IMG/VR virus record: IMGVR_UViG_2925903241_000005
Coordinates: 1-46,437 of that record
From: a virus
Taxonomy: Duplodnaviria > Heunggongvirae > Uroviricota > Caudoviricetes
Direction: 5' to 3' (one strand)
Length of the DNA: 46,437 nt
Positions 35,253 through 36,651 of the stretch are shown here, piece after piece. Numbering within the stretch: position 1 is the stretch's first letter; every line of letters begins with the position of its first letter. The translations under genes and the position numbers were made by a program. The notes below the pieces were generated by a model, which was not told where the DNA came from, did not search any database, and saw only the letters and a program-made list of their open reading frames with translations.

Positions 35253-35713
35253 TCTTCACCCGATGCAGCGCGCTTGCTGCTTTTCCGTAAACACCGCTCA
35301 CGACGCGCAAGAAAATTGTTTCGCTCTTGCTGGGAGTGGCTTTCACGGAATGCCGCCATCCACACCGTTGCAGCACGACGGTATAAGCCCCTGGACTCCA
35401 GTTCTTCCGCCTGGCGGGTCAGGCATAAAATCACCCGGGGATCGTTAGTGCCGACATAGAAATTGCGCACAGATCTGGTTTCTCGAACTGGTTGTGGTTC
35501 CGGTTCCTGCGCTCTCTCAGTCAGGCGCGGAAAATGTCTGCGTGTATCTCCTTCACAACGGTGAGCCACACGCCCACTCTGACGTAACTTGCTTGCAGAC
35601 TGCAGAACGCGCTGCCGTGAGTAACCTGCAAAAGCATCCGTAATGTCTCCGGAAGTACACCCCGGATGGGCTTCAATGAATTTCTGAACGTCATTCAAAA
35701 GACTCATGATCAC
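35219..35713 (-). CDS. hypothetical early-region protein
   Basis: 164-aa ORF translationally coupled to the O-like gene upstream and to Dam downstream; a PerC-like resemblance is only a vague impression. Confidence 0.35.
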   Translation of the reverse strand: MIMSLLNDVQKFIEAHPGCTSGDITDAFAGYSRQRVLQSASKLRQSGRVAHRCEGDTRRHFPRLTERAQEPEPQPVRETRSVRNFYVGTNDPRVILCLTRQAEELESRGLYRRAATVWMAAFRESHSQQERNNFLARRERCLRKSSKRAASGEEWYLSGNYVGA

Positions 35714-36651
35714 CCCCTGAATCCTGCCGGGATCTGGCTGTAGTCCACGTTGTCGTAACTGGATTTGAAGTACGGGTCTTCGCGTTTTTCGGTGTACGTG
35801 CTGACGGACGGCGATAAGCGCAGGGAAAGCTCATCCCATTTTTCCCGCAACTTCGACGGGCTGAGCACGTTACGGCACCAGAACGGATCGCGGCTGACGC
35901 GGCTGTACATCTCGCAGATTTGTTTGTGAGTACGACCATCCTGCACGCACATCAGGCGAATTTCGTTTGCCCAGGCTGTCCAGTTCGGTTCTTTGGGACG
36001 AACCACCTCGCCGTCACATTCGGCAGCCTGCTCGTACAGGGCGATGATTTTTTTCCAGAGCCACTGTGCGCAGGTCAAATCATCCTGCGTTCCCCACTGG
36101 CGCTTTTTAGGGCTGAATACAACCGCATCAGGATGGCGAGTTAAAAACTCTTGTTCAGCCGTCTGCGTGTCCGGTTGCGAAGCGTCCGGACGAGAAGTTT
36201 TTTTATCTGACGGATCATGTTTTGATTTTACTGACGGATCCCCGCCAGATTCTGACGGGTGAAAACCCGCTTTTTTGCCAGATTTCGACGCATCAAATTT
36301 TGACTGGTCAGATTTTGATGCGTCAGATTTTGACGGGTCAGAATCTGACAGTTGAGAAAATGCCGCTGCCTGAAGCTTCGCAACGTTAAGCTGATAAACA
36401 TTCGACGCATTGCGGTTACCCTGGCGACGCGCCTTACGCGTTAACCAGCCTTCTGCTTCCAGCCGTGCGATAGCCGTTCTGACGGTGCTCATCCCCGCGC
36501 CAATCTGGCGGGCAATGGTTTCAATTGATGGCCAGCACACACCTTCGTCATTACTGAAATCAGCCAGGCGGGCCATAATTGCCACGCTGGATAACTTCAT
36601 GCCTGACGCAGCGCAACCATCCCATACATAGCCGGTTAATTTAGTGCTCAT
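35710..36651 (-). CDS. replication initiator (O-like; N-terminal winged HTH, repetitive linker, C-terminal domain)
   Basis: N-terminus ..[35 protein letters not shown].. HTH; central [18 protein letters not shown] repeats encoded by iteron-like DNA repeats; position after cro and CII-like genes. Confidence 0.55.
   Translation of the reverse strand: [313 protein letters not shown]
36205..36350. repeat. iteron-like tandem repeats inside the initiator gene (candidate ori)
   Basis: At least eight degenerate copies of about 11-12 bp (GATTTTGACGG / GATTCTGACGG / GATTTCGACG) at 12-18 bp spacing. Confidence 0.45.

What the first reader, a model, noticed from the sequence alone, without database searches (positions are those of the whole stretch)
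35710..36651. Initiator gene with embedded iteron-like repeats and no recognisable helicase loader
The O-like gene contains at least eight degenerate 11-12-bp repeats (36205..36350) that also encode an SKSD-type repetitive linker, analogous to lambda ori inside O. No lambda P or DnaC-like loader gene follows; the next genes are a 164-aa unknown and Dam. The phage may recruit host DnaC/DnaT-type functions or use the 164-aa protein.
Basis: partly seen in the sequence, partly recalled or inferred. Interest (0 to 1): 0.4.

Follow-up and report, generated by a model that had tools for sequence, protein, structure and literature searches.

The report
Loader-less phage initiator with DnaT-like tail
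A lambda-like prophage carries its replication origin inside its initiator gene and has no helicase-loader gene, but the initiator ends in the same short peptide as the host restart protein DnaT, which points to how such phages may borrow the host's DnaC loader.

Summary
Gene 35710..36651(-) encodes a lambda-O-type initiator: a winged-helix N-domain, a disordered linker, and a C-domain homologous to lambda O (E 2e-25). The linker DNA carries the only tandem array in 46 kb: 13-bp palindromes GTCAAAATCTGAC every 15 bp (not 11-12), then a conserved A/T-rich block with two GATC sites. This is where ori-lambda sits in O. In relatives the repeats change with the DNA-binding domain and can occur in both orientations, so the DNA is selected, not the SKSD peptide. 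No P, DnaC-like loader or helicase is encoded in the prophage. The "164-aa unknown" is a PerC-family regulator.

New here: the protein ends in SQIPAGFRG, matching 8 of 9 residues at the end of E. coli DnaT (SQIPPGFRG). Among relatives, Trp-acidic lambda-like tails always precede a P gene (41/41) and DnaT-like tails never do (0/19). All 79 initiator ORFs found just upstream of phage dnaC homologues, of several unrelated architectures, end in [IV]PxGF[RK]G. The published O-only phage LLS has the tail too.

Best reading: the tail recruits host DnaB-DnaC. This is inferred, and partly confounded because the last codons double as a ribosome-binding site. O-only modules were reported in 2025 as not understood.

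The parts
35710..36651 (-). Replication initiator gene (313 aa), lambda-O-type but with a different DNA-binding domain and tail
   Evidence: phrog_391 'replication initiation O-like', E 1e-134, full length. BLASTP against lambda O, E 2e-25. 97-98% identical to the gene of Shigella phages SfII/SfIV and several E. coli phages.
36358..36651 (-). N-terminal winged-helix DNA-binding domain (residues 1-98)
   Evidence: Pfam HTH_36, E 4e-11. AF2 model gives a helix/strand wHTH. Foldseek hits are MarR/ArsR-type wHTH regulators.
36277..36351 (.). Iteron array A: five tandem 15-bp units, each a 13-bp near-palindrome GTCAAAATCTGAC plus a 2-bp variable spacer. Encodes [25 protein letters not shown].
   Evidence: Copy number varies in 15-nt steps among near-identical genes.
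36244..36258 (.). Sixth, isolated iteron-like unit (CCGTCAGAATCTGGC)
   Evidence: one mismatch to the 13-mer consensus.
36190..36240 (.). Conserved A/T-rich block B with two GATC sites: GATCCGTCAGTAAAATCAAAACATGATCCGTCAGATAAAAAAACTTCTCGT. Candidate unwinding element or shared site.
   Evidence: GC about 0.35-0.40 against about 0.53 for the gene (and direct count). Conserved across DNA-binding-domain subtypes, with GATCC kept at 33 of 34 Asp-Pro codon pairs in 17 loci.
35812..36168 (-). Lambda-O-type C-terminal domain (residues 162-280)
35713..35757 (-). C-terminal tail [15 protein letters not shown]. The last 9 residues are a DnaT-type motif.
   Evidence: BLASTP against E. coli DnaT matches only the extreme C-termini, [18 protein letters not shown], 8 of 9. 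P308, G310, F311 and R312 are invariant in the subfamily. Low pLDDT, as expected for a linear motif.
35713..35718 (-). AGGGGG (codons Arg312-Gly313), which doubles as the Shine-Dalgarno for the next gene's ATG at 35707
   Evidence: The sequence reads TTC AGG GGG TGA TC ATG. AGG GGG is used in 55 of 59 distinct tails.
35219..35707 (-). PerC-family / YfdN-like gene (161 aa from the ATG; 164 aa from the GTG at 35713). Not a loader.
   Evidence: Pfam PerC, E 2e-9; phrog_1324 'transcriptional activator', E 2e-78. Not conserved downstream of other loader-less initiators.
34638..35252 (-). Phage Dam (N6-adenine methyltransferase). Possibly relevant to the GATC sites in block B.
   Evidence: Pfam Dam, E 9e-45.

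Best explanation
The gene encodes the phage's origin-binding initiator, and the origin lies inside the gene.

Domain layout: a MarR-like winged-helix N-domain, then a disordered linker of about 60 aa, then a lambda-O-type C-domain, then a short flexible tail.

Proposed mechanism:
1. The N-domain binds, probably as dimers, an array of 13-bp palindromes (GTCAAAATCTGAC, 15-bp register) in the DNA that also encodes the linker.
2. The resulting nucleoprotein complex destabilises the adjacent conserved A/T-rich, GATC-containing block.
3. No phage loader exists. In lambda, the Trp-acidic C-terminal tail of O goes with P. Here that tail is replaced by a DnaT-type tail (…SQIPAGFRG).
4. I infer that this tail docks the host DnaB-DnaC complex, most likely through DnaC. 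The initiator would then act as both O and a 'DnaT mimic', delivering the host helicase to the opened origin.

Status of each step:
- Shown: domain homologies, repeat anatomy, co-variation of repeats with the DNA-binding domain, absence of a loader, tail identity with DnaT, and the association of tail type with the downstream loader gene.
- Inferred: actual binding, unwinding, and the tail's partner.
For: Origin inside the gene:
- This is the only tandem array in the window, and the 13-mer is strongly over-represented.
- It occupies the same position as ori-lambda in O.
- Each DNA-binding-domain class has its own repeats in the same linker: TTGACCCC/GGGGTCAA in both orientations in L013 (7 forward, 4 reverse, 0-1 elsewhere in 10 kb); GTTCAGAtTCTGAAC in L016; and four iterons at 22-23 bp spacing in L021, L024, L035, L037 and L056.
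- The N-domain and linker are inherited as a unit, separately from the C-domain (P0118; LLS).
- The 2-bp spacer varies while the 13-mer does not.

No loader.

Literature: 34 of 314 lambdoid phages encode only an O homologue and their replication is 'not yet understood' (PMC12315714).

Tail:
- 8 of 9 residues identical with the DnaT C-terminus.
- RDxNxxSEPDxxIPPGFRG is almost invariant in DnaT orthologues.
- dnaT lies immediately upstream of dnaC in E. coli.
- In 79 of 79 IMG/VR loci with an ORF upstream of a DnaC homologue (48% identical to E. coli DnaC), that ORF ends in [IV]PxGF[RK]G, although the proteins have at least four unrelated architectures.
- Among 80 genomic relatives: Trp-acidic tails, 41 of 41 with P; DnaT-like tails, 0 of 19 with P, 2 with DnaC-like, 17 with neither.
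- The plaque-forming O-only phage LLS has the same N-domain and linker, a different C-domain (Phg_2220_C), and again the tail …IPEGFRG.
- The last five residues of lambda O are essential (PMC6022878).
- [IV]PxGF codons differ between families, and Arg is CGC/CGA/CGT in L005, L007 and L026, so conservation is at the protein level.
Against: - Nothing here is experimental.
- The 15-bp register is unusual compared with 20-24 bp in lambda and in the other classes. Which element is actually bound (the 13-mers or the CCGTCA elements at 21-24 bp spacing) is not resolved.
- The last two codons are AGG GGG in 55 of 59 tails and form the ribosome-binding site of the next gene. Part of the tail's conservation, and of its linkage to dnaC, could therefore be translational.
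- No interaction of DnaT with DnaC has been demonstrated (PMC11087952). A 2026 structure paper favours the DnaT N-domain as the DnaB/DnaC recruiter (PMC13377028).
- Association counts are inflated by relatedness of the loci.
- LLS growth is helped by RecBCD, so recombination-dependent loading may contribute.
Confidence: 0.55

Rival explanations
1. The tail is conserved mainly because its last codons (AGG GGG) and neighbouring bases form the translation-initiation region of the next gene, and because it travels with dnaC as a recombination cassette. It is not a docking motif. The helicase would then be loaded another way: direct contact of the O-type or Phg_2220_C domain with DnaB-DnaC, or PriA/PriC restart proteins acting on the opened origin or on RecBCD/Chi-generated D-loops.
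For: AGG GGG is used in 55 of 59 distinct tails, 5-7 nt before the next ATG. Chi is enriched and no Rec module is present. RecBCD enhances growth of the O-only phage LLS (PMC12315714). No DnaT-DnaC contact has been shown.
Against: Conservation extends about 20 residues upstream (RDxNxISxPDxxIPxGF), with differing codons. GFR is kept with CGN Arg codons where no gene start follows (L005, L007, L026). The tail is kept in 17 loci and in LLS without any dnaC downstream. It is almost invariant in chromosomal DnaT.
Confidence: 0.25
2. The repeats are only a slippage-prone, low-complexity coding region for a flexible SKSD linker. The true origin lies elsewhere in the prophage.
For: The linker is predicted to be disordered (pLDDT below 40). 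Copy number is polymorphic. P0019 and P0015 lack most units.
Against: Repeats differ by DNA-binding-domain class while the position is kept. In type-2 genes the same DNA motif occurs in both orientations and encodes different peptides (DPSNI, DPPTV, EGSTI). Other classes show four iterons at 22-23 bp spacing without a peptide repeat. Each unit is a palindrome, which a peptide repeat does not require. No other repeat array exists in the window.
Confidence: 0.1
3. The downstream PerC-family protein (or another small winged-helix protein found after loader-less initiators) is an unrecognised helicase loader or adaptor.
For: Small wHTH-containing genes (PerC-like, DUF977, DUF1627) often follow loader-less initiators. 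In the window the gene is translationally coupled to the initiator.
Against: The downstream gene is not conserved: ParB-like, MT-A70, Dam or another methylase follow directly in L005, L020, L026, H29 and LLS. PerC is a family of transcriptional activators. There is no ATPase or P-like domain.
Confidence: 0.04

Closest known systems
Bacteriophage lambda O protein and ori-lambda
   Same: Two-domain initiator with a flexible linker. The C-domain is homologous (E 2e-25, about 40% identity in the core). The origin repeats lie in the linker-coding DNA, followed in the coding direction by an A/T-rich stretch. The DNA-binding domain plus iterons form one exchangeable unit and the C-domain another.
   Different: The N-domain is HTH_36/MarR-like, not Phage_rep_O. 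The iterons are 13-bp palindromes in a 15-bp register, not 18-19-bp units at 20-24 bp. No P gene follows. The Trp-acidic tail (…TDWIYGVDL) is replaced by …SQIPAGFRG.
E. coli primosomal protein DnaT (replication restart)
   Same: Identical type of extreme C-terminus (SQIPPGFRG against SQIPAGFRG). In relatives (L024, L030) the same gene order is found: [tail-bearing protein] followed by dnaC.
   Different: No DnaT DNA-binding domain (PF17948) and no DnaT N-domain; similarity is confined to the tail. It acts at a sequence-specific origin, not at abandoned forks. The 'primosomal protein' label in database records therefore overstates the relationship.
O-only replication modules of lambdoid phages (phage LLS and 33 others; Zheng, Casjens et al. 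2025, PMC12315714)
   Same: One initiator gene, with no helicase or loader. The LLS initiator shares the N-domain and repeat-bearing linker (79% identity over residues 1-164) and the IPxGFRG tail.
   Different: LLS has a Phg_2220_C C-domain instead of the lambda-O C-domain. The paper reports the module type as not understood and, in the passages I searched for replication terms, mentions neither the tail nor an origin.
Iteron plasmids whose Rep protein recruits host DnaB-DnaC (pSC101 RepA, R6K pi, RK2 TrfA) (from general knowledge, not tested here)
   Same: A sequence-specific wHTH initiator binds iterons next to an A/T-rich region and relies on the host helicase and loader.
   Different: Those origins usually also use DnaA boxes, and none lies near this origin. 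The proteins are unrelated, and no DnaT-type tail is known to me in them.
DnaD-like / SPP1 G38P-G39P replisome organisers of Firmicutes phages
   Different: Similarity is weak, there is no Pfam DnaB_2 hit, and those systems encode their own loader.

Membership tests
Lambda O-type initiators | C-terminal domain homologous to lambda O residues ~170-270 | tested here: met
   BLASTP E 2e-25. tblastn finds lambda, 434, 21, H-19B and Stx phage O genes.
Lambda O-type initiators | N-terminal Phage_rep_O DNA-binding domain | tested here: not met
   Pfam gives HTH_36, GntR and MarR-like hits only.
Lambda O-type initiators | Origin iterons within the linker-coding part of the gene, followed by an A/T-rich region | tested here: met
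   Anatomy and comparative co-variation. Protein binding and origin activity are not testable with these tools.
Lambda O-type initiators | Partner loader P encoded immediately downstream, and a Trp-acidic C-terminal tail | tested here: not met
   No P anywhere in the window. The tail is SQIPAGFRG. Relatives with Trp-acidic tails are followed by P in 41 of 41 cases.
DnaT (primosomal protein I) | DnaT DNA-binding domain (PF17948) | tested here: not met
   No hit at E<=0.1. E. coli DnaT itself scores E 4e-21.
DnaT (primosomal protein I) | Conserved C-terminal tail RDxNxxSEPDxxIPPGFRG | tested here: inconclusive
   The last 9 residues match at 8 of 9; the upstream half (RDxN..SEPD) is only loosely similar (DNVDYS).
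DnaC/IstB AAA+ helicase loaders | AAA+ ATPase domain with Walker A; homology to DnaC | tested here: not met
   No Pfam IstB_IS21 or Bac_DnaA hit in any window ORF scanned. tblastn with the L030 DnaC-like protein finds nothing in the window.
Lambda P loaders | Phage_lambda_P domain (PF06992) | tested here: not met
PerC family (the 164-aa protein) | PerC domain above the Pfam gathering score | tested here: met
   PF06069, 37.9 bits against a cutoff of 22.6, residues 100-151. phrog_1324, E 2e-78.
DnaA-dependent iteron origins | DnaA boxes adjacent to the iterons | tested here: not met
   TTWTNCACA occurs only at 10073 and 30035, fewer than expected by chance.

The most novel reading that the evidence does not exclude
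The roughly 20-residue DnaT-type C-terminal peptide (…S.PD..[IV]PxGFRG) is a portable recruitment motif for DnaC, or for DnaB-DnaC. The host would use it in the PriA-PriB-DnaT restart primosome. Phages have grafted it onto at least five unrelated initiator scaffolds: lambda-O C-domain, Phg_2220_C, DnaT-domain, and two Pfam-less types. Some of these phages bring their own DnaC. The 'O-only' lambdoid phages, including this prophage, SfII/SfIV and LLS, use the motif alone to hijack host DnaC. If so, this would answer both how O-only lambdoids load a helicase and how DnaT hands DnaB-DnaC to the fork.
Probability: 0.4. Interest if true: 0.8.

Novelty: new variant of a known kind. Interest (0 to 1): 0.62.

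Why it matters
Two open questions meet here.

1. A 2025 survey found that about 11% of lambdoid phages encode only an O homologue and stated that their replication is not understood (PMC12315714).
2. Papers from 2024 and 2026 on replication restart state that how the PriA-PriB-DnaT preprimosome recruits DnaB-DnaC is unknown, and that no DnaT-DnaC contact has been shown (PMC11087952, PMC13377028).

The shared tail gives one specific, cheap-to-test hypothesis for both: a short linear motif that docks the DnaC loader. It also explains why these genes are often mislabelled 'primosomal protein'. In addition, it gives a rule, based on tail type, for predicting which helicase-loading route a lambdoid replication module uses. 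The origin-in-gene part is an ordinary, if neat, extension of the lambda paradigm.

Tried and rejected
- DnaA boxes near the origin: none.
- Sequence search of the initiator against solved structures: only MarR-type hits to the N-domain.
- Foldseek of the full model against the PDB: only wHTH regulators.
- NCBIfam: nothing informative.
- IMG/VR scan with the initiator alignment: only 95-100% identical copies, useful solely for copy-number polymorphism.
- My first guess that the 411-445-aa genes after some GFRG-tail initiators were DnaB-type helicases was wrong: L005_d1, the one member of that BLAST cluster scanned against Pfam, is ParB-HTH.
- 'Primosomal protein I' as a true DnaT homologue: rejected, because only the tail matches.
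- PerC-like protein as the loader: rejected, because it is not conserved downstream.
- Defective prophage: rejected, because SfII, SfIV, vB_EcoS-569R4, the PhiR phages and LLS are deposited as phage genomes and carry this initiator or its N-domain and linker; LLS forms plaques on E. coli K-12.
- Literature searches for 'initiator-solo' and for the motif string PGFRG found nothing relevant.

Full report
**What is in the sequence**

The window is a complete lambda-like siphovirus prophage. It has Nu1/A terminase, a lambda-type portal, S49 protease, capsid E, tail genes Z, V, H, L, K, I and J, Lom, a tail fibre, lysis genes and Q.

Its early-right region is 97-98% identical to that of Shigella phages SfII/SfIV and several E. 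coli phages. On the minus strand the gene order is: cro, a CII/CP76-like gene, a 112-aa ORF (with an overlapping DUF4222 ORF), the initiator (35710..36651), a PerC-family gene, dam, a LexA-DNA-binding-domain-only gene, rusA, a KilA-N gene, a DUF968/HNH gene, and Q.

**The initiator**

Pfam sees only an N-terminal HTH_36 winged helix. PHROGs places the whole protein in 'replication initiation O-like' (phrog_391, E 1e-134).

BLASTP against lambda O gives E 2e-25. Residues 170-277 align with lambda O residues 172-270, which belong to the C-terminal part of O that the literature assigns to P binding (PMC6022878).

AlphaFold2 gives three regions:
- a wHTH N-domain, which is MarR-like by Foldseek;
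- a disordered linker, residues 102-160;
- a confident helical C-domain, residues 162-280, pLDDT above 90.

**The repeats**

TRF finds a single tandem array in the whole window, at 36279-36342, with period 15 or 30.

Read on the coding strand, five consecutive 15-bp units occupy 36351..36277. Each unit is nnGTCAAAATCTGAC: a 13-bp near-palindrome plus a 2-bp spacer. A sixth unit lies at 36258..36244.

The 13-mer consensus with at most 1 mismatch gives 12 strand-matches against 0.86 expected. Ten of these are at five sites in 36244-36349.

Downstream in the coding direction lies a 51-bp A/T-rich block (36240..36190) with two copies of GATCCGTCAG.

The array encodes xSKSD repeats in the disordered linker. 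This is the position of lambda's four iterons, O codons 116-144.

**Is the DNA or the peptide selected?**

I extracted 80 related loci from one-genome-per-species contigs and compared the linker DNA.

- Proteins with the same N-domain subtype keep the GTCAAAATCTGAC units, even at about 63% protein identity (Pantoea, L005 and L006).
- A second subtype (MSSKLHGLVWEGCA…) instead has TTGACCCCnCAA units in the same 15-bp register, and in both orientations (TTGACCCC and GGGGTCAA). The encoded peptides therefore alternate between DPSNI, DPPTV and EGSTI. L013 has 7 forward and 4 reverse copies, against 0-1 in the other 9 kb of that locus.
- L016 has GTTCAGAtTCTGAAC and L019 has GGCTCACnnnGTGAGCC.
- Unrelated N-domain classes carry four of their own iterons at 22-23 bp spacing at the same place: L021, L024, L035, L037 and L056.

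The N-domain and linker move as a unit relative to the C-domain. P0118 has a different N-domain and linker but a 99% identical C-domain. Phage LLS has the same N-domain and linker (79% identity) but a different C-domain.

Copy number varies in 15-nt steps among near-identical genes. The positions that vary between units are the two spacer bases.

All of this is what an origin co-evolving with its binding domain predicts, and not what a peptide repeat predicts.

Block B is conserved across N-domain subtypes. The Asp codon before Pro is GAT, creating GATC, in 33 of 34 cases. A role for Dam methylation or SeqA is possible but untested.

**No loader**

No ORF in the window has a lambda P, DnaC/IstB, DnaB-helicase or primase domain. 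tblastn with eight P homologues and one DnaC homologue finds nothing. No DnaA box lies near the origin.

The next gene is PerC-family (K-12 YfdN-like), not an unknown.

The O-only arrangement is already in the literature. [quoted passage not shown]

**The tail**

Sorting the 80 relatives by their last residues and by the downstream gene gave a clean split:

| Tail type | Loci | Followed by P | Followed by DnaC-like | Neither |
|---|---|---|---|---|
| Trp-acidic, like lambda O's TDWIYGVDL | 41 | 41 (start overlapping or close to the initiator's stop) | 0 | 0 |
| [IV]PxGFR[GSVC] | 19 | 0 | 2 (L024, L030) | 17 |
| …IWxQAxE… | 16 | 0 | 0 | 16 |

A further 4 of the 80 loci fall outside these three classes: L009 and L075 (other tails, each followed by P) and L032.

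Fisher's exact test for the first two classes gives p = 3e-11, not corrected for relatedness. L032, a frameshifted copy, also has the DnaC-like gene.

In lambda, an amber mutant lacking the last five residues of O is non-functional (PMC6022878).

I then searched IMG/VR with the L030 DnaC homologue, which is 48% identical to E. coli DnaC over its full length. In all 79 loci that had an upstream ORF, that ORF ended in [IV]P[PTSA]GF[RK]G, 3-21 nt from the dnaC start.

These upstream proteins belong to unrelated architectures: lambda-O C-domain, Phg_2220_C, DnaT DNA-binding domain, and two types without Pfam hits. They share only a tail of about 20 residues, RDxNxISxPDxx[IV]PxGFRG.

E. coli DnaT is encoded immediately upstream of dnaC. 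It ends …[20 protein letters not shown]. BLASTP of DnaT against the window protein matches only the two extreme C-termini, SQIPPGFRG and SQIPAGFRG. In 105 DnaT orthologues this tail is almost invariant.

Phage LLS, the published plaque-forming O-only phage, ends …VDTKIPEGFRG and has no P or DnaC gene.

**Interpretation**

The window protein is a lambda-O-type initiator in which the P-associated tail has been replaced by a DnaT-type tail. The most economical reading is that this tail recruits DnaC or DnaB-DnaC: the phage's own DnaC where one is encoded, and the host's in O-only phages.

This fits the literature view that DnaT is the likely DnaB/DnaC recruitment factor. It also fits the statements that the mechanism is unknown and that no DnaT-DnaC contact has been shown (PMC11087952; PMC13377028). 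Those authors favour the DnaT N-domain, and in the text I searched they do not discuss the C-terminal tail.

**Caveat**

The final codons are TTC AGG GGG in 55 of 59 distinct tails. AGGGGG sits 5-7 nt before the next gene's ATG, including the PerC-like gene here, so it is also a ribosome-binding site. This could explain conservation of the last two residues and part of the linkage to dnaC.

It does not explain three things:
- the roughly 20-residue conservation with differing codons;
- the CGN Arg codons in L005, L007 and L026, where no start follows;
- the retention of the tail on chromosomal DnaT and on loader-less initiators.

**Verdict**

The origin-in-gene reading is well supported (about 0.8). 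Absence of a loader is nearly certain. The tail-recruits-DnaC mechanism is a reasoned inference (about 0.5).

The feature is a new variant of a known kind. The O-only fact itself is published. I found no description of the DnaT-type tail in the searchable literature.

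Noticed in passing
window 89-37348 (Chi sites at 28405, 32400, 34833 on +; 89, 318, 29522, 32529, 32800, 33937, 35189, 37348 on -): There are eleven Chi octamers (GCTGGTGG) against about 0.55 expected per strand. Six minus-strand sites cluster in the early-right operon. The early-left region has no recognisable recombination module (DUF2303, YfbR-like phosphatase). This fits the 'no Rec module / many Chi' class of lambdoid phages described in PMC12315714.
   Followed up: partly
window 36641-36999 (-): A 59-aa DUF4222 ORF (36641..36820; Pfam E 9e-19) lies in a different frame inside the 3' half of the 112-aa ORF 36661..36999 (phrog_1170). The SfII annotation lists only the 112-aa ORF. 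These are either overlapping genes or a mis-called ORF.
   Followed up: no
window 34243-34569 (-): A 108-aa protein consists only of a LexA DNA-binding domain (PF01726, E 3e-19) with no peptidase/cleavage domain. It sits between dam and rusA.
   Followed up: no
L012, L014, L017, L018, L027, L038-L040, L043, L045, L056, L058, L066, L068, L072, L074 (initiator C-termini): This is a third class of lambda-O-C-domain initiators. They are longer, end in …IW[QK]QA.E…, and come from Providencia, Proteus, Morganella, Edwardsiella and Sodalis. They also lack P and DnaC-like genes downstream, so their helicase-loading route is unexplained too.
   Followed up: partly
window 36190-36240 and the same block in L002-L023: GATC (Dam) sites are kept at 33 of 34 Asp-Pro codon pairs in the conserved A/T-rich block next to the iterons, often with a third AGATCT. 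The module encodes its own Dam two genes downstream, although SfIV reportedly lacks the methylase (PMC3851460).
   Followed up: partly
L037:6651-6872: A DnaT-tail initiator (…TIPEGFRG) has a 73-aa fragment of a lambda-P-like gene about 920 nt downstream. This may be a remnant of a module exchange between P-dependent and P-independent types.
   Followed up: no
L003:5340-5708 (E. coli chromosome): A 122-aa remnant holds only the C-domain and tail of this initiator, followed by a PerC-like gene. It looks like the K-12 CPS-53 yfdO/yfdN arrangement, that is, a decayed copy of the same module.
   Followed up: no
window 6798-7397 (-) and 2975-6739 (-): The prophage carries a Lom/Ail outer-membrane protein gene (PF06316, E 1e-122) and a 1254-aa tail fibre with a C-terminal S74 intramolecular chaperone domain.
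   Followed up: no
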